Translations under genes and position numbers: made by a program | Origin: a virus | Lineage: Duplodnaviria > Heunggongvirae > Uroviricota > Caudoviricetes | Reading direction: 5' to 3' (one strand) | IMG/VR virus record: IMGVR_UViG_2531839330_000009 | DNA length: 52,062 bases | Shown here: positions 1,369-45,352 of the stretch, piece by piece | Position numbering within the stretch: position 1 is the stretch's first letter | Layout: every line of letters starts with the position of its first letter | The notes under the pieces: generated by a model | Seen by the model: the letters and a program-made list of their open reading frames with translations, nothing else | The model's database searches: none | What the model was told of the DNA's origin: nothing

Positions 1369-1444
1369 GCCGATATAGCTCAGTTGGTAGAGCAGCGCAT
1401 TCGTAATGCGAAGGTCGTAGGTTCGACTCCTATTATCGGCACCA
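1369..1444 (+). tRNA. thrW: tRNA-Thr (anticodon CGU)
   Basis: 76-nt cloverleaf GCCGATATAGCTCAGTTGG...GGTTCGACTCC...CACCA; anticodon loop TTCGTAA; lies directly after proA. Confidence 0.9.
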
Positions 1445-1458: not shown

Positions 1459-2622
1459 TTACACATCATTAGTACCTTCCTTATTTTTTAACTGGGACAA
1501 ATTTGGGACCGATGGGTTCAGGATCGAGTCTATTTGCCGTGCGTGTTCGGTAAGGTGATTAGGTGCAAGGTGAGCATATCGACGAACCATTTCGATAGAC
1601 TCCCAGCCTCCCATTTCCTGTAACACTGACAACGGGACTCCGGCTTGAACCAGCCAACTTGCCCAGGTGTGTCTCAAGTCGTGAAATCTGAAATCATCAA
1701 TACCAGCCCGTCTCAGCGCCGCTTTCCAGGCTGTGTTTGCGTCATACCGCATCTTCCTTACTGTTGGCGCTTTCGTTCCGTCTGGTTTGGTACAGCTTTC
1801 CTTGTACACAAATACCCAACGGTGATGATTCCCGATTTGTTTTTTCAAAACGCGACATGCAGTATCATTCAGCGCAACGCCAATTGCGCGGTTTGATTTA
1901 CTCTCTTCCGGGTTTATCCATGCCCCCCGGCGCTGCATGTCTATTTGTTGCCATTCAAGGTTGATGATGTTCGAGCGTCTTAAGCCTGTTGCCAGTGCAA
2001 ATTCAACAACAGACTTTAATGGCTCCGGACATTCATCAATCAGCCTTTGTGCTTCATGGGGCTCCAGCCAGCGGATCCGTTTATTCTTTGGTTGAGGCAC
2101 TTTAATAATTGGTGCCTTATCCAGCATTTTCCATTCACGCTCTGCGGCTCTTAGTAGGGCCTTTATAAATGAAAGATGCGTAGCCTTCGTTGCAACGGAC
2201 GCTGGTTTTGGCGTGTATTCTGGAACAGGTTTCCCTTTTTTTCTGCATGCTTCTGCCCTGAGTCTCCAGTTTTCCTCATGACGCCGGTTCGTCATTTTCT
2301 GCATTGCTGAATAAATTTTTGATTCAGTAATGTCTCTTAGTTGCATTCCTGCGAAATGTTGAAGCCAGAATCCGATCCGGCTTTTGTCATCGTCCAGTGA
2401 TTTTTTATGTGCTTTCTCTTCAAGCCACCTGACACACGCTTCCTCGAACGTTATATCAGGTATTTCACCAAGTTTGCTGACCCGCCATGCTTCAGCCTTT
2501 AGCTTGTCATGGAGTTCTGTCGCCTGCCTTTTGTCCTTTGTTCCAAGAGACTGTTTAAATCTTTTACCGTTCGGCAATGTGAAACTGGCGTACCATATTT
2601 CACCTCTGCGGAAGAGTGACAT
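1459..2622 (-). CDS. int: tyrosine integrase (P22 Int-like)
   Basis: 387 aa, MSLFRRGE...; C-terminal HDLRHTWAS...RY catalytic motifs; adjacent to tRNA att site. Confidence 0.9.
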
Positions 2623-39041: not shown

Positions 39042-39623
39042 CTTTATCAATGACTTATCTCCCGACTTCCCGCCTTGCTTTTCCTAAACAGAACAATCGT
39101 AGAATATTCTTGAAGGGTTAGATCGTCACTGTTTTCTGTTCGATACTGTGACATTCAGCACTTGATTCGCTATGGATCTGACAGGAAGGTTTCGAGCGAA
39201 AATCTGCAGTTATTCAGTCGTTTTCTTATCGGTCACCATTATTCTTTTAGACATTGATCCTACAAAGCTGCCGCAAAGTTGGTGGTGGGAACTGAAGTTG
39301 CGTAGAGAAGGGGTCAATACCCGGGGGCAAACATGGGCTGGCAAAAGTGTAGCGGTATTAGGCGCAGCTATTTAGCCTAGTTATGTTTTATGAAAACTTG
39401 ATATCATATAAGTGTCTTACTTATTGGCTGTAAATAAGTTTTTCCTAAGGAATTGTTTCTTGAGTATCATTTGTAACTGTAACGGAATTTATAATCCTTT
39501 GCTTTATTGTTACGGTATTTTTTATCACACCCTATTTTTAGTGGTTTTTTATACTGAAGTTTGGCAAAGTGAACTTTATATACATATACTTCATCCTGGT
39601 TTCAGTTAAATTGGGTGGATGAT

Positions 39624-40367
39624 ATGGCAACTACATGTTCAGTTATATTGATTTTGGAGTCCTTTGATGTTTATTTCGGAAAAGAGATTGTGTTTCTGGA
39701 GAGAGGTTCATCTGTACTTGTCGACTCTAGCTCTAGAGATTTTTTCCTGACATATCCTGAAAGAGTGATAGTGGCGGATTTTGGCGCTGAGTTTATTAGT
39801 CGCTATTTGAAAGCTAATAACTTAAGGGATATTTCTGATTGTAGGGAATATCCATCTTATTTAAAAATAAACTTTGCTGACTTCAGTTTAATTAAAGGAT
39901 TAATTAGTTGGGCTAATCACTGTGCTGAATACATAGAAATTTTTGATGAGTCTATTGCTTTTACATGTCTCTCTGCATTTTCTTCTGAAAAACAATTTGG
40001 AGTATTTCTGTTTGGATGTTTGAAAAGCACAGGGGCTAAAGTTAAAACGATTATTCATACGGATTTATCTGCACCATGGCGTCTTAAGGATATATCATCA
40101 AGATTATATCTCAGCGAAAGTTTACTAAAGAGGAAATTGAAAGAAGAGGGGGTATCATTCAGTAAGATCATACTTGATGAGAGGATGCAAATGGCTGAAT
40201 ATTTACTCAGCACTCGTTGTTATCCTATTAGTAAAGTAGCTAAGGTCTGTGGTTATGCCAGTGTCTCATACTTTACTTATGTATTTAGACGTTATTTTGG
40301 TGTTTCTCCAAGTCAATACTCTCAGAGGAGTTCAGAAAGTAAAATTCTTACTCACCAGGGAATCTGA
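39624..40367 (+). CDS. AraC-family transcriptional regulator (Rns/PerA-like virulence-regulator type)
   Basis: 247 aa; C-terminal dual HTH (…KVAKVCGYASVSYFTYVFRRYFGVSPSQY); very AT-rich. Confidence 0.7.
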   Translation: MATTCSVILILESFDVYFGKEIVFLERGSSVLVDSSSRDFFLTYPERVIVADFGAEFISRYLKANNLRDISDCREYPSYLKINFADFSLIKGLISWANHCAEYIEIFDESIAFTCLSAFSSEKQFGVFLFGCLKSTGAKVKTIIHTDLSAPWRLKDISSRLYLSESLLKRKLKEEGVSFSKIILDERMQMAEYLLSTRCYPISKVAKVCGYASVSYFTYVFRRYFGVSPSQYSQRSSESKILTHQGI

Positions 40368-40408
40368 TCATTGTTCTTGCCCCCTTATTTCCAGACAGGG
40401 GGTGTATC

Positions 40409-40636
40409 TTAAGTTAACGTTACCCGCTGACGTCGATATTCTCGCAGAGAGCGATAACCCAACGCACTGTGCGGATGGTTTTCATTGTAATGTTCGATCG
40501 CCACTGCAAGATTATGCAATGCCGTTCTTACATTCGGTTTCGGCATGAACGCGATGTAGTCTTCCTTCATCGTTTTCACGAACCTTTCTGCCATTCCATT
40601 ACTCTGAGGACTGCTGATTGCCCATGAGGAGTACAA
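40409..40636 (-). pseudogene. IS3-family (IS2-like) transposase C-terminal remnant
   Basis: …[15 protein letters not shown]…[18 protein letters not shown] is the OrfB C-terminus; no upstream transposase body. Confidence 0.6.
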
Positions 40637-40856
40637 TTAAACGGGTTAATCAGTTTCTCCATTTGAAAGAAAAAAGACTTCTGTACTGTTTGATATCACC
40701 GCTATTTTCTTATTTTCTGTGCAGGTCGTAGTGGGACAAAACTGAGACACATAAGGCCTCACAATGGCTTGCAAGGCTTTACATGTTTTGATGTGGTGGG
40801 ACGTGTGAGCGCAGTGTTGATGGGGTAATGCTTTGAATTAGAAGCGGATTCTTATA

Positions 40857-40903
40857 ATTCGTAATGCGAAGGTCGTAGGTTCGACTCCTATTATCGGCAC
40901 CAT
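40857..40903. repeat. attR: 47-bp direct repeat of thrW 3' end
   Basis: Identical to 1399-1445; identity breaks on both sides. Confidence 0.8.
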
Positions 40904-41533
40904 CAACAGAAAACCCCGTAAAAGCTGCATTGTTTAGCATGTTTATCTAACGGTTTGTAACTTCTGTTCTAACGTCCGCTATCACTTACAAACGCCTATA
41001 CGTTGTTATGGGCTTTGGTAGTGTAACACGTATGGGCGAGTAGTTCCCAGGCTCAACCTCGTAACAAGTTCCTTTGAAGCTGGAAGACGTGCCACCGTCT
41101 CTAAACCTTCTACCAAAACTCTTAGCAAGATGTTCCACACCTGGCGCGGTGTCCAATGATGCTACACGTCGTGAGACGTTGCAGAGGATAAACAGGCTAA
41201 ATGATGGGAAGAGTTTTAAGTGCAATAGTGGATCAAAGCCCACCTCTTCAAAACCTAACTTGATCGGGAAAGAATCAAGCTCTAGCACGGTTTCGTCCAC
41301 CGGAGTACAACGGGTGCCTGATAAGAGAAGAACTGCTAAGACTTCATAGCTTTTGTGAAAAAGCCCTTTTTAGTGGATACGCCTACGGCGCTTATTTTTT
41401 GGTATAACCATCAAAGGCGCTTTATGGCTCCTATTGTCTTGAAAATGTATCTTTACTTGTATTGTGTTTTATGCGTAGTCTCCCTGTGTAGTATGTAACT
41501 TGTTAATTTTCATATGAATACAGAGGCAACACG

Positions 41534-41686
41534 ATGAAAAACATTGCAGCTATAAAACGTAATAACCGCAAGATTCACGCTCGTAAGTTCCTGTCTACGC
41601 CAGAGGGAAAAGCCTGGCTAGAGCGTAAACAGCGAGAGAACGAAGAAAGAAAACTCCTTAGTGAGTTGAAATGGCTTAAGGATTGA
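41534..41686 (+). CDS. small basic protein (50 aa), hypothetical
   Basis: ATG with AGAGG RBS 7 nt upstream; followed by a long hairpin. Confidence 0.3.
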   Translation: MKNIAAIKRNNRKIHARKFLSTPEGKAWLERKQRENEERKLLSELKWLKD

Positions 41687-41696
41687 ATCACCAGTA

Positions 41697-41738
41697 GGCG
41701 CATAACACATCCAGCGATCAAAGATGTGTTTATGCGCC
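41697..41738 (+). other. long imperfect hairpin (15-bp arms)
   Basis: GGCGCATAACACATC ... GATGTGTTTATGCGCC, then AT-rich tract. Confidence 0.4.
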
Positions 41739-42236
41739 TGATAGTGAAATTATTAAAGTTTTTTAGTTAATGTAGCCATTGCATGAACGATGATCGCTAG
41801 TGAATCGATTTTATCTCGAGGGGTAAAATAGATGAGGTATATGATGGTAACAATTACAGCTAAAGTAATTGTGGTTCTGCAGGTTTTTAAAATGGATGAG
41901 ATAAAGCGCATAGATACCCCCTATTGATTTAACAATAGCAAAGTATCATTTATTTTTTATTGCACGCAACATGCAAATTTTCACATATAATAGTTTACTA
42001 TTCACTTTGTATGGTGTCAACAAGATGATGTGTTGTTTTGTTTGATTTGTTCAAGATAATGTTTCATTTTCTCATCTATATAACTTGTGTTTTAGATAAT
42101 TTCACTAATTGTAAAAGTTACGTATTGCTTAATAGCTACCTTTTTATCTGAAATCGGCGCAGACGTGATCAATGTTTAACGCGAAGATCAGCGGCGTCAG
42201 GTCCACGCAGCGACAATTCTCAAATATCAGGAGGCA

Positions 42237-42794
42237 TTACGCTTCCTGCTCTTTCTTAATACGTTGCACTGTCTGTGTGCTGACACTGAAATCTTTTGCT
42301 ACGCTCCGAATTGATCCACCATTCGCGAGAGCGGCAACAATTCCCGCTCGATCAATTGCTTTTCCATTACCACGTTTTGCTATACGCCCAGCTGCCTTAG
42401 CTGCTGCGATCCCTTCACGTTGACGCTCAAGCATCATTTCACGTTCCATTTGTGCCACTGCTGCAAGCACTGTGAGCATCATATTCCCTGCGGGAGAGTT
42501 CTTCCCTGTCTTAAAGTCTTCTTTATGGAAATGCACAGACACGCCGCGCTCTGTTAATTGCTCAACCGTTGCCAGTAGGTCGGCTGTATTACGGCAAAGT
42601 CGATCAATGCTGTGAACATGCAAAACATCACCTTCACGCACATAGTTCATCATTGCCTCAAACTGTGGGCGCTGGGTATTCTTGCCTGACGCTTTATCTT
42701 CAAAGACTTTATCAAGAGTTACTCCAGCTAATTGACGGTCTGTGTTTTGTTGGACAGTCGATACCCTAATGTATCCAATATTAGCCATTTTCAT
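42237..42794 (-). CDS. small serine recombinase (resolvase/invertase family)
   Basis: 185 aa; IGYIRVSTVQQ catalytic Ser motif, C-terminal HTH; start at 42794 or 42788. Confidence 0.8.
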   Translation of the reverse strand: MKMANIGYIRVSTVQQNTDRQLAGVTLDKVFEDKASGKNTQRPQFEAMMNYVREGDVLHVHSIDRLCRNTADLLATVEQLTERGVSVHFHKEDFKTGKNSPAGNMMLTVLAAVAQMEREMMLERQREGIAAAKAAGRIAKRGNGKAIDRAGIVAALANGGSIRSVAKDFSVSTQTVQRIKKEQEA

Positions 42795-43297
42795 TTTCCT
42801 TCTGTGTTGATTTGTGTGTAGTGATTATTGATCGTGTTGATTAGGTGTGTAAAGGACTTTTTTCACTACGAAATTCGAAGGTTTTTAGTGTGGTGATTTA
42901 GCCTGCTTTATCACTACACGTCTTGCATGAGAATCATGTGGTTACGTTTTGGTAAAATTAGCAAGCTATTAAATAGTGTGTTTATTTTGAAAAAATAATT
43001 TTTTGTTGCATTAAAGAAAACTTGTTCGACAGATAATAGATTGATTTTTAATCAATAATTTCTGATAGTGCTCTGTAAGCCGCATTACACAAGGATTTGC
43101 GAAAGTGATGTAAAAGTGAAGAAAGCTAACATTGCACTTTTTAAGCTACTTTTCATTGAATTTTTAGTATGGAATTACATAAGGATTAATCATCAATTAA
43201 TCTTGAATTTAAGCCTGTTTTAGATGTTTAATTTTGGTAGCAAGAAACACTTTTAGAAGATCATTGCACAGATGTTATGTGATAAATGGATGTAACG

Positions 43298-44725: not shown

Positions 44726-45352
44726 ATGATAAACCAGCCAACTTTTACAAAACACTATAACACGTTTGATAATATATCAAAGATTTACTCTAATGAATTT
44801 CCAGAAGGTAAGGTTTTAGATTTATTGCACATTGTTCTTTATTATAGATTTCTTAGTTATCAGGAAAATGGTCTTAATTGTTATGAAAGTCACGAAACAT
44901 TAGCTAAGATTTTTAAGTCTTCACCATCAACAATTAAACGTAAGATAAACGATCTTAAAGAGATGGGATTATTAGAAACATCCCCACATCCTGATCCGTA
45001 TATTTCATCTTTGATTTACAATGCTCTCCCTCTCACAGATGCACATATTACTCCCCCAGGAGAGTCATCACTACCTGATCCTTCTGAGAAAGAAAACGAA
45101 TCTAATGAAATATTGAATGTTTCAGAAATCATCGTTGAAGAAGAAAAACAGGAATCAGAGTTCCCTGAGCGGCCCGAAATTTTTACTTGGCTTCTTTCCC
45201 TTGATAAGAAGAAACCACCGCACGAAGAAACAGAAGATTTTGTAAAACGAGCATTAGATTCAAAGAATATCTATCTTTGTGAAAATGATTTTGACTCTTT
45301 GATAATTGATCTCAAAAGTGAGAGCACAATATATGATTCACTACCCTTTTAA
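44726..45352 (+). CDS. winged-helix DNA-binding protein, possibly replication initiator/regulator
   Basis: 208 aa; wHTH-like region (ESHETLAKIFKSSPSTIKRKINDLKEMGLL); acidic C-terminus. Confidence 0.4.
   Translation: MINQPTFTKHYNTFDNISKIYSNEFPEGKVLDLLHIVLYYRFLSYQENGLNCYESHETLAKIFKSSPSTIKRKINDLKEMGLLETSPHPDPYISSLIYNALPLTDAHITPPGESSLPDPSEKENESNEILNVSEIIVEEEKQESEFPERPEIFTWLLSLDKKKPPHEETEDFVKRALDSKNIYLCENDFDSLIIDLKSESTIYDSLPF

What the first reader, a model, noticed from the sequence alone, without database searches (positions are those of the whole stretch)
39624..40367. AT-rich AraC-family (virulence-regulator-like) gene carried as prophage cargo
247-aa ORF with a typical AraC C-terminal dual-HTH and very low GC, preceded by ~450 bp of AT-rich leader. 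It resembles the Rns/AggR/PerA class of AraC regulators that control fimbrial or virulence loci; here it rides on a prophage next to an IS3-family remnant. It may regulate host genes in trans.
Basis: partly seen in the sequence, partly recalled or inferred. Interest (0 to 1): 0.45.

Follow-up and report, generated by a model that had tools for sequence, protein, structure and literature searches.

The report
PatE acid-resistance regulator on a prophage
This gene is the already characterised prophage-borne AraC-type regulator PatE of E. coli, which switches on the host's acid-resistance genes, so the finding is real but ordinary.

Summary
The ORF is real. It runs 39624..40367 (+), encodes 247 aa, has an intact AraC-type dual HTH at the C-terminus, and is 35% GC against 48.5% for the window. 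It lies at the right end of a complete-looking 39.5-kb prophage integrated in thrW, next to an IS3-family remnant.

It is 246/247 identical (S22I) to ECs_0287 of O157:H7 Sakai and to the only AraC gene of EDL933 prophage CP-933H. That gene is the published regulator PatE (z0321, O-island 8; Bender et al. 2012). PatE is RpoS-dependent and induced in stationary phase. It activates gadE, gadBC and hdeAB and lowers LEE expression.

Its nearest characterised relatives are the acid-resistance regulators YdeO, GadW and GadX (33-35% identity). Rns/CfaD is more distant (about 20-28%), although the overall fold is of the Rns/ToxT type.

The "AT-rich leader" is a mosaic of four pieces:
- a 3' fragment of tRNA-Ser serU
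- 276 bp of core serU-yodB intergenic DNA
- 55 bp of an IS630-family end
- 249 bp of native upstream DNA (29% GC)

A 1.64-kb stretch running from the serU fragment into the IS3 remnant recurs at about 99% identity in unrelated phages.

Verdict: already known, low interest.

The parts
1399..1444 (+). 3' end of the thrW tRNA-Thr(CGU) gene. This is the attL-side copy of the prophage att repeat. The full tRNA is 1369..1444.
   Evidence: ARAGORN; sequence read; exact repeat found at 40857..40902.
38976..39043 (+). 3' fragment (about 64-68 nt) of tRNA-Ser(CGA) serU, with one mismatch. It marks the left edge of the portable patE cassette.
   Evidence: Aligned to the K-12 serU locus. Weak tRNA-like Rfam hits only. 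The cassette shared with phages starts at 38980/38982.
39044..39319 (+). Copy of the core-chromosome serU-yodB intergenic DNA (42% GC), i.e. host flank of a serU att site.
   Evidence: Window 38976..39319 matches the serU locus at 97-99% in essentially all of the 5426 complete E. coli genomes, K-12 included. O111 strain 14614 has a lambdoid prophage ending at exactly this fragment plus flank, next to yodB.
39320..39374 (+). Terminal 55 nt of an IS630-family element.
   Evidence: 91% match to the 3' end of an IS630-family transposase gene plus 22 nt beyond it on plasmid pJNE23-001_1.
39375..39623 (+). Native patE upstream region, 249 bp, 29% GC. It differs from EDL933 at one position (39616).
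   Evidence: From 39382 it is homologous (82.6%) to the Q-to-AraC intergenic region of a lambdoid prophage.
39561..39590 (+). Candidate promoter TTGGCA-18 nt-TATACT, 34 nt upstream of the ATG. TATACT is the -10 hexamer typical of sigma-S promoters (my own knowledge).
   Evidence: It is the only + strand hit of the consensus scan. The block is fully conserved in the 82%-identical paralogous locus. Function is not shown.
39624..40367 (+). patE coding sequence (247 aa plus stop). An AraC/XylS-family regulator with a beta-rich N-terminal domain and a C-terminal dual HTH.
40372..40636 (-). Remnant of an IS3-family element (partial ISEc48), carrying the C-terminal integrase-core part of the transposase. 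It forms the right edge of the cassette; shared homology ends at 40622.
   Evidence: rve_3 hit; Sakai repeat_region annotation; homology end-points.
40857..40902 (+). attR of the prophage, an exact repeat of the thrW 3' end. A second, low-GC thrW island begins immediately after it.

Best explanation
The gene is an allele (S22I) of patE, the AraC/XylS-family 'prophage-encoded acid-resistance transcriptional activator' first described in EHEC O157:H7 EDL933 prophage CP-933H.

Proposed mechanism:
- The gene is transcribed from its own AT-rich upstream region on entry into stationary phase, in an RpoS-dependent way.
- The protein binds AT-rich promoter DNA of host acid-resistance genes through its C-terminal dual helix-turn-helix. 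The published site is -132 to -45 of hdeA.
- It raises expression of gadE, gadBC and hdeAB. The lysogen then survives extreme acid better.
- In LEE-positive hosts, type III secretion genes go down as a secondary effect.

What is shown here: identity to PatE, synteny, intactness, domain architecture and family placement. What comes from the literature on the 246/247-identical protein: regulation and targets. What is inferred: that the same happens in this host, that the TTGGCA/TATACT block is the promoter, and that the AT-rich upstream is H-NS-silenced.

The gene travels as a 1.64-kb cassette (serU fragment, host flank, IS630 end, patE, IS3 remnant) that has been recombined into several unrelated temperate phage backbones.
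For: Identity and synteny:
- 246/247 aa identity to Sakai ECs_0287.
- One nucleotide difference in the CDS and one in the 249-bp upstream region relative to EDL933.
- Same synteny: proA-thrW-int ... pinE, GIY-YIG gene, AraC gene, IS3 remnant.
- It is the only AraC-family gene in CP-933H/Sp1.

Literature:
- PatE is z0321 on OI-8, activates gadB/gadC/gadE/hdeAB, acts at hdeA -132..-45 and represses six LEE genes (PMC10877973).
- Z0321 is listed as 'putative regulator (prophage CP-933H)' and is 6-fold RpoS-dependent (PMC2907692).
- ECs0287 rises 2.9 log2 units in early stationary phase (PMC2241611).
- PatE and PsrB are cited as prophage AraC regulators of AR2 alongside AppY (PMC10057817).
- Overexpressing a gene of E. 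coli Nissle that the authors call a PatE homologue raises survival at pH 2.5 (bioRxiv 10.1101/2025.08.01.668021).

Family placement:
- Best NCBIfam profiles are YdeO (147 bits) and GadX (111 bits).
- 33-35% identity to YdeO, GadW and GadX, and a shared N-terminal M-x-x-x-C-S-V/I motif.
- The GadX DNA-binding domain 3mkl matches at E 3e-24 by sequence, and at 43% identity and 1.8 A rmsd to the model.

Distribution:
- The cassette is present in 549 of 5426 complete E. coli genomes.
- It is also in the phage genome records mEp332, ev099 and PhiR70_1.
Against: - No experiment was done on this allele or this host. S22I lies in the N-terminal domain and its effect is unknown.
- The primary paper (Bender 2012) could not be read here. 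PatE function is therefore cited through a review and other papers.
- From memory, the Bender abstract places patE 'between Z0321 and Z0322', whereas the review says z0321. Either way it is the single AraC gene of CP-933H.
- Allelic differences among six copies are mostly non-synonymous (11 against 2). Two of them fall at family-invariant glycines in the phage copies. This hints at relaxed constraint rather than strong purifying selection.
- The window does not contain the GAD island, so the presence of the targets in this host is assumed.
Confidence: 0.88

Rival explanations
1. It is an Rns/AggR/PerA-type virulence activator whose main job is to switch on a fimbrial or other virulence locus elsewhere in the host genome.
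For: - It has the same overall two-domain fold class as CsvR, Rns and ToxT (Foldseek probability 1.0 over the full length).
- The sequence match to Rns/CsvR runs over residues 17-232 at E about 1e-16.
- The gene is AT-rich and horizontally carried.
- PatE does influence LEE genes, negatively.
Against: - Identity to CfaD/Rns is only about 20-28%, against 33-35% to YdeO, GadW and GadX.
- NCBIfam ranks YdeO and GadX first.
- There is no fimbrial or virulence operon beside it in any of the contexts examined.
- The Rns fatty-acid-contact residue R75 aligns to a Phe in PatE, though this part of the alignment has low confidence.
- The published regulon is acid resistance, and the LEE effect is repression.
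Confidence: 0.07
2. It is a phage-directed regulator that controls prophage genes (lysis-lysogeny, late genes or superinfection functions) rather than host physiology.
For: - Close and distant homologues (84%, 55% and 53% identity) sit between the Q antiterminator and the holin in lambdoid prophages.
- The patE unit is homologous to such a locus from the 3' end of Q onward.
- The whole family is phage-associated (PHROG 1450).
Against: - The same cassette is found on unrelated backbones: a contractile-tailed thrW prophage, lambda-like siphoviruses and an argW prophage. It also persists in the heavily deleted Sp1/CP-933H remnant. A backbone-specific phage role is therefore unlikely.
- The Q-to-holin slot is the classical place for lysogenic-conversion cargo such as stx (my own knowledge).
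- The published targets are host genes.
Confidence: 0.04
3. In this non-O157 host the gene is redundant, drifting cargo that adds nothing measurable beyond the resident GadX/GadW/YdeO circuit.
For: - There are 11 distinct non-synonymous against 2 synonymous differences among six alleles. These include G131E and G137E at glycines invariant across the PatE-like family.
- The host already has several AraC regulators of AR2.
- Published phenotypes rest largely on overexpression.
Against: - The ORF is intact in all seven copies examined, six of them distinct alleles.
- The promoter-proximal block is conserved even in an 82%-identical paralogous locus.
- The review reports that a patE-null EDL933 mutant has lower expression of acid-resistance genes.
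- The sample of alleles is too small for a dN/dS test.
Confidence: 0.08

Closest known systems
PatE (z0321 / ECs_0287 / WP_000246059.1) of E. coli O157:H7 prophage CP-933H / Sp1
   Same: - 246/247 aa identical.
- Same thrW integration site.
- Same neighbours: pinE, GIY-YIG gene, ISEc48 remnant.
- Upstream 249 bp identical but for one base.
   Different: - S22I substitution.
- Here the carrier prophage is full length (about 39.5 kb, with head and contractile-tail genes), whereas Sp1/CP-933H is a 10.6-kb remnant.
- The element downstream of attR is a different thrW island, not the P4-like Sp2/CP-933I.
YdeO, GadW and GadX (chromosomal AraC-type regulators of the E. coli AR2 / acid fitness island)
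   Same: - Same size and architecture.
- 33-35% identity, with a shared N-terminal MxxxCSV motif in YdeO and GadW.
- Best NCBIfam profiles.
- The DNA-binding domain is 43% identical to the GadX structure 3mkl.
- They converge on the same targets, gadE and hdeAB.
   Different: - Scores are far below the equivalog cut-offs (147 against 348 for YdeO; 111 against 500 for GadX), so it is not an orthologue.
- It is phage-borne, not in the acid fitness island and not in the safA-ydeO operon.
AppY of cryptic prophage DLP12 (E. coli K-12)
   Same: - A prophage-encoded AraC-type regulator placed after the tail-fibre genes near the prophage end.
- It directly activates gadE and AR2 genes and raises acid tolerance (PMC10057817).
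   Different: - Only 28% identical.
- Different prophage, with ompT as neighbour.
PatE-like paralogues in the Q-to-holin slot of lambdoid prophages (P0021 84%; P0025 55%; P0027, P0028 and P0030 53%). These are probably the Psr family, but that was not verified.
   Same: - Same length and domain layout, and phage-borne.
- The upstream region of P0021 is homologous to the patE upstream region, including the promoter-like block.
- The review reports that PsrB binds the same hdeA region as PatE.
   Different: - Located in the late-gene slot rather than the tail-fibre/att region.
- I could not locate psrA (z1789) in the EDL933 potC prophage. The equation with PsrA/PsrB is therefore not established.
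Rns / CfaD / CsvR (ETEC) and ToxT (V. cholerae)
   Same: - Two-domain fold class: a beta-rich N-terminal domain plus a dual HTH.
- The only full-length solved structures that match the model.
   Different: - About 20-28% identity.
- The N-terminus is about 26 residues shorter.
- The Rns ligand-contact residue R75 is not conserved in the alignment.
- The regulon is acid resistance, not pili.

Membership tests
AraC/XylS family of transcription regulators | C-terminal domain of about 100 aa with two helix-turn-helix motifs | tested here: met
   Pfam HTH_AraC 60.7 bits (cut-off 26.6) and HTH_18 58.4 bits (cut-off 33.6) over residues 158-235. The model DBD has pLDDT 80-92 and superposes on the GadX DBD at 1.8 A.
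PatE (EHEC CP-933H regulator) | Sequence identity with the EDL933/Sakai protein | tested here: met
   246/247 aa identical, S22I only.
PatE (EHEC CP-933H regulator) | Genomic position: right end of the thrW prophage, between the pinE and GIY-YIG genes and an ISEc48 remnant | tested here: met
PatE (EHEC CP-933H regulator) | RpoS-dependent stationary-phase expression; activation of gadE, gadBC and hdeAB; binding to the hdeA promoter; enhanced acid survival | not testable with these tools
   Known only from the literature on the O157 allele. The upstream region is conserved to 1 nt in 249.
YdeO (NCBIfam NF007407 equivalog) | Score at or above the curated cut-off of 348 bits | tested here: not met
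   147.3 bits; 34.7% identity. Context differs from the safA-ydeO operon.
GadX (NCBIfam NF007432 equivalog) | Score at or above the curated cut-off of 500 bits; location in the acid fitness island | tested here: not met
   110.7 bits covering residues 102-239 only. Phage-borne context.
Rns/CfaD/AggR/PerA class of virulence activators | Close sequence relationship to Rns-type proteins | tested here: not met
   28% to CfaD by tblastn and about 20% in structural alignments. This is lower than to YdeO, GadW and GadX.
Rns/CfaD/AggR/PerA class of virulence activators | Linked or cognate fimbrial or virulence operon | tested here: not met
   None is adjacent in the window or in six other contexts. 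A distant cognate locus cannot be excluded by sequence alone.
Rns/CfaD/AggR/PerA class of virulence activators | Two-domain fold with a beta-rich N-terminal domain packed on the dual-HTH domain | tested here: met
   Foldseek probability 1.0 to CsvR, Rns and ToxT over about 250 columns. TM is only about 0.41 and the N-domain pLDDT is 65-74.
Phage moron / lysogenic-conversion cargo | Non-essential gene in a cargo slot, with composition unlike the flanking phage genes, its own promoter, and presence independent of the phage backbone | tested here: met
   35% GC against 54-60% in the tail genes. Lies between the tail-fibre/pin module and attR. The same cassette occurs on unrelated backbones. A promoter-like site is predicted. 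Expression in lysogens comes from the literature.

The most novel reading that the evidence does not exclude
The patE cassette is a sequence fossil of how a phage cargo gene was assembled and made portable. The patE unit (39382..40361) began as a moron in the Q-to-holin late slot of a lambdoid phage. It was cut out by an IS630-family insertion at the 3' end of Q and an IS3-family insertion just after its stop codon. It was then fused to the attR side (serU 3' fragment plus 276 bp of host flank) of a serU-integrated lambdoid prophage, for example by imprecise excision or IS-mediated recombination. It now moves as a 1.64-kb block among unrelated temperate phages by recombination. A further, more speculative point: the conserved TTGGCA-18-TATACT block may descend from the phage late-region promoter context.
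Probability: 0.55. Interest if true: 0.3.

Novelty: already known. Interest (0 to 1): 0.15.

Why it matters
PatE is one of several phage-borne AraC regulators (AppY, PsrA/B, PatE) that plug into the E. coli GAD/Hde acid-resistance circuit. They plausibly help lysogens pass the stomach, which bears on the low infectious dose of EHEC.

This window shows the gene outside O157, on an apparently complete prophage that is common in commensal, animal and environmental E. coli. The trait is therefore not EHEC-specific, and three phage genome records also carry the gene.

None of this is new in kind. The value of the check is to attach a name and a published function to the ORF and to correct the subclass assignment. 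The mosaic anatomy of the cassette is a small, possibly undescribed, evolutionary footnote.

Tried and rejected
- **Primary papers.** I tried to read Bender 2012 (PMC3416394) and Yang 2015 (PMC4288888). Neither is held, so PatE function is cited through a review and other papers.
- **Old EDL933 record.** NC_002655.2 is not in the collection. I used NZ_CP008957.1 and Sakai instead.
- **Rfam.** An E-value search over 36000..43000 gave only weak tRNA-like hits on the serU fragment and nothing else. There is no known sRNA or riboswitch in the leader.
- **Ancestral arrangement.** I looked for a genome with an intact serU followed by the patE upstream, using a chimeric query. None of the 5426 complete E. 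coli genomes has it, so the ancestral arrangement is not documented.
- **PsrA.** I tried to locate psrA (z1789, said to be on OI-50/CP-933N) in EDL933 to measure identity with PatE. No AraC-family ORF turned up by annotation or tblastn in 1,615,001..1,685,000. The 53% paralogues are therefore not equated with Psr.
- **Rns fatty-acid pocket.** I checked whether it is conserved. The R75 equivalent aligns to Phe, and H20 falls in a region with no aligned counterpart in the shorter PatE N-terminus. There is no support for ligand control of that kind, and the alignment there has low confidence.
- **Hairpin after the stop codon.** The hairpin at about 40379..40403 folds no better than shuffled sequence (z = 0.07) and lies inside the IS3 end. 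It is not claimed as a terminator.
- **Small ORFs in the leader.** ORFs 39172..39375 and 39412..39609 were considered and dismissed. The first lies in copied serU-yodB intergenic DNA where K-12 annotates no gene. The second lies in 29% GC DNA, and I found nothing to support it as a gene.

Full report
**1. The observation**

The six-frame ORF list shows one long ORF on the + strand at 39615..40367 (GTG, 250 aa). An in-frame ATG at 39624 gives 247 aa. RefSeq annotates the 744-bp ATG form in O157 genomes. In EDL933 and Sakai, position 39616 is G, which abolishes the GTG, so 39624 is the conserved start.

The protein hits Pfam HTH_AraC (60.7 bits, cut-off 26.6) and HTH_18 (58.4 bits, cut-off 33.6) at residues 158-235. 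The CDS is 35.1% GC. The window averages 48.5%, and the tail genes upstream run 54-60%.

The prophage context is real:
- proA ends at 1254 and tRNA-Thr(CGU) thrW lies at 1369..1444.
- An ORF in the position of the prophage integrase lies at 1459..2622 on the minus strand.
- Terminase, portal, capsid, tail-sheath, tape-measure and baseplate genes follow, then a Pin invertase.
- An exact repeat of the thrW 3' end lies at 40857..40902.

The ORF at 40409..40636 (-) carries an rve_3 integrase-core domain. Sakai annotates this region as a partial ISEc48 of the IS3 family.

**2. What the gene is**

Megablast of 39100..40450 against 5426 complete E. coli genomes finds the whole segment in 549 genomes. 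Identity is 99.8% in many O157:H7 strains.

In Sakai the gene is ECs_0287 in prophage Sp1, integrated at thrW. It is followed by the ISEc48 remnant and then the P4-like Sp2. EDL933 has the same arrangement and the same protein, WP_000246059.1, as the only AraC-family gene of the thrW prophage CP-933H. The window protein is 246/247 identical, with S22I as the only change. The 249-bp upstream region differs from EDL933 at one base.

A 2024 review states that PatE is encoded by z0321 on O-island 8 of EDL933 (PMC10877973). According to that review:
- PatE is an AraC/XylS regulator.
- It activates gadB, gadC, gadE and hdeAB.
- It acts on hdeA between -132 and -45.
- It negatively affects six LEE genes.

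Independent array studies add two points. Z0321, listed as 'putative regulator (prophage CP-933H)' on O-island 8, is 6-fold RpoS-dependent (PMC2907692). ECs0287 rises 2.9 log2 units in early stationary phase (PMC2241611).

The AppY paper groups PatE and PsrB with AppY as prophage AraC regulators of the AR2 system (PMC10057817). A 2025 preprint overexpresses a Nissle 1917 gene that its authors call a PatE homologue, to raise survival at pH 2.5.

I could not open the primary PatE paper. From memory, its abstract places patE 'between Z0321 and Z0322' in CP-933H. Either wording points to the single AraC gene there.

**3. Family placement and architecture**

NCBIfam ranks YdeO first (147 bits, cut-off 348), then GadX (111 bits, cut-off 500), then HilD. 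None reaches its equivalog threshold.

Pairwise identities:

| Relative | Identity to PatE |
|---|---|
| YdeO | 34.7% over 248 aa |
| GadW | 33.5% |
| GadX | 35% over 161 aa |
| AppY | 28% |
| CfaD | 28% |

YdeO, GadW, AppY and PatE share the N-terminal motif M-x-x-x-C-S-V/I.

Against solved structures, the best sequence match is the GadX DNA-binding domain 3mkl (E 3e-24). Full-length CsvR and Rns follow at E about 1e-16 over residues 17-232.

An AlphaFold model built from a 12-sequence alignment is of moderate quality. Mean pLDDT is 67, with the DNA-binding domain at 80-92 and the N-terminal beta-rich domain at 65-74. Foldseek returns CsvR, Rns and ToxT as the only full-length matches (probability 1.0, TM about 0.41). 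The GadX domain superposes at 1.8 A with 43% identity.

The protein therefore has the Rns/ToxT-type two-domain build, but by sequence it belongs with the acid-resistance regulators. The Rns fatty-acid contact residue R75 aligns to a Phe, in a low-confidence part of the alignment.

PHROGs places the protein in phrog_1450, labelled 'unknown function' (E 6e-95).

**4. Anatomy of the 'leader' and of the cassette**

The 773-bp gap upstream of patE is a mosaic (GC values):

| Coordinates | Content | GC |
|---|---|---|
| 38976..39043 | 3' 64-68 nt of tRNA-Ser(CGA) serU | 63% |
| 39044..39319 | Copy of the serU-yodB intergenic DNA | 42% |
| 39320..39374 | Last 55 nt of an IS630-family element | 55% |
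| 39375..39623 | Native patE upstream region, 249 bp | 29% |

The first two pieces together (38976..39319) match the serU locus in essentially all of the 5426 genomes at 97-99%, K-12 included. The IS630 piece overlaps the 3' end of an IS630-family transposase gene on a plasmid at 91% identity.

The native unit 39382..40361 is 82.6% identical to a locus in which an 84%-identical homologue (P0021) sits between a Q antiterminator gene and the holin of a lambdoid prophage. The homology begins 8 bp inside the 3' end of Q. More distant homologues at 55% and 53% occupy the same Q-to-holin slot.

The one + strand promoter-like site is TTGGCA-18-TATACT at 39561..39590. It lies in a block that is fully conserved in that alignment. 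TATACT is the -10 hexamer favoured by sigma-S (my own knowledge), which fits the reported RpoS dependence. The start site has not been mapped here.

The segment 38980..40622, from the serU fragment into the IS3 remnant, recurs at 98.8-98.9% identity in the phage genome records mEp332 and ev099. There it lies between the tail-fibre assembly gene and, in ev099, IS remnants followed by int. It also occurs in an argW prophage of strain 673 and in Sp1/CP-933H. In strain WY517-2 only the part from 39328 onward is present, behind an IS1.

In O111:NM strain 14614 a lambdoid prophage is integrated at serU. Its right end reads tail fibres, nleC, then the serU 3' fragment starting at the same base as the cassette, then the host flank and yodB.

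The simplest reading is this. The left part of the cassette is the attR junction plus host flank of a serU-integrated lambdoid prophage. It was joined through IS630 and IS3 events to a patE unit that came from a Q-to-holin slot.

No complete genome in the collection keeps an intact serU followed by patE, so the intermediate is not documented. This model is inference.

**5. How it most likely works**

- Shown here: the gene and its immediate upstream region are intact and almost identical to the characterised O157 allele. The protein has an AraC dual HTH closely related to that of GadX.
- From the literature on that allele: sigma-S-dependent stationary-phase expression, activation of gadE/gadBC/hdeAB including an hdeA promoter element, higher acid survival when expressed, and lower LEE expression.
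- Inferred: the same circuit operates in this host, because the acid fitness island is core E. coli DNA (my own knowledge), although it lies outside the window. The AT-rich gene is probably H-NS-silenced until stationary phase. S22I is probably neutral.

**6. Rivals**

- An Rns-type fimbrial activator is unlikely. Identity is lower, no cognate operon is adjacent, and the published regulon differs.
- A phage-directed role is unlikely because the cassette is independent of backbone and persists in a decayed prophage remnant.
- Drifting, redundant cargo cannot be excluded. Among six alleles I counted 11 distinct non-synonymous and 2 synonymous differences. These include G131E and G137E at glycines invariant in the family alignment, found in the two phage copies. 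The sample is too small for a test. All copies are intact, and the review reports lower acid-resistance gene expression in the EDL933 null mutant.

**7. Novelty and verdict**

The gene is a known, named and experimentally studied regulator. This copy is one substitution away from the reference allele, at the same chromosomal site. The carrier prophage is full length here and is found at 80% coverage or more in 106 complete genomes, mostly non-EHEC isolates. The downstream neighbour is a different thrW island.

The only element I did not find described is the mosaic origin of the cassette, a minor evolutionary point.

- Novelty: already known.
- Interest: 0.15.

Noticed in passing
window 38976..39319: A truncated tRNA-Ser (serU) 3' end plus 276 bp of serU-yodB intergenic DNA, copied from the core chromosome, sits inside a thrW prophage and forms the left edge of the patE cassette. 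The same junction base is the attR boundary of a serU-integrated lambdoid prophage in O111:NM strain 14614 (L016).
   Followed up: yes
window 39320..39374: A 55-nt fragment matching the 3' end of an IS630-family element (91% to plasmid pJNE23-001_1, L015 2001..2056) is wedged between the copied host flank and the native patE upstream region.
   Followed up: partly
window 39382..40361; L021 6752..7738: The patE unit, including its upstream 242 bp, is 82.6% identical to a locus where an 84%-identical homologue lies between a Q antiterminator gene and the holin. Homology starts 8 bp inside the end of Q. More distant homologues (53-55%) occupy the same slot behind three different Pfam families of Q (L008, L021, L022).
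   Followed up: partly
window 39624..40367 compared with L002, L006, L007, L013, L014, L017: Differences among six patE alleles are almost all non-synonymous (11 distinct against 2 synonymous). Phages mEp332 and ev099 carry G131E and G137E at glycines that are invariant across the PatE-like family alignment A2.
   Followed up: partly
window 40903..about 51440: A second island begins right after the prophage attR. It is low in GC (35-41%). It encodes a resolvase-type serine recombinase (42237..42794, minus strand), an HTH protein (44726..45352) and several proteins with no Pfam hit, including a 633-aa one (49173..51074). In other strains (e.g. C8, L018) the same island sits directly at thrW with a tyrosine integrase at its far end. 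Function unknown.
   Followed up: partly
window 36231..38850: A Pin-type serine invertase (37375..37965) lies next to oppositely oriented tail-fibre and tail-fibre-assembly ORFs, suggesting an invertible host-range segment. It is followed by a LEM-3-like GIY-YIG domain protein on the minus strand (38026..38850).
   Followed up: no
L019 and L020 (EDL933 NZ_CP008957.1 1,615,001..1,685,000): The review places psrA (z1789) on O-island 50, which I recall to be prophage CP-933N at potC. Neither the annotation nor tblastn with PatE or its 53% paralogues finds any AraC-family ORF in the potC-integrated prophage of this EDL933 assembly. The location and sequence of PsrA could not be confirmed here.
   Followed up: partly
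window 51436..52062: Similarity to the thrW island of other strains stops at about 51440. The remaining roughly 600 bp carry only short ORFs of 42-91 aa on both strands. This may be an insertion or a different element at the window edge.
   Followed up: no
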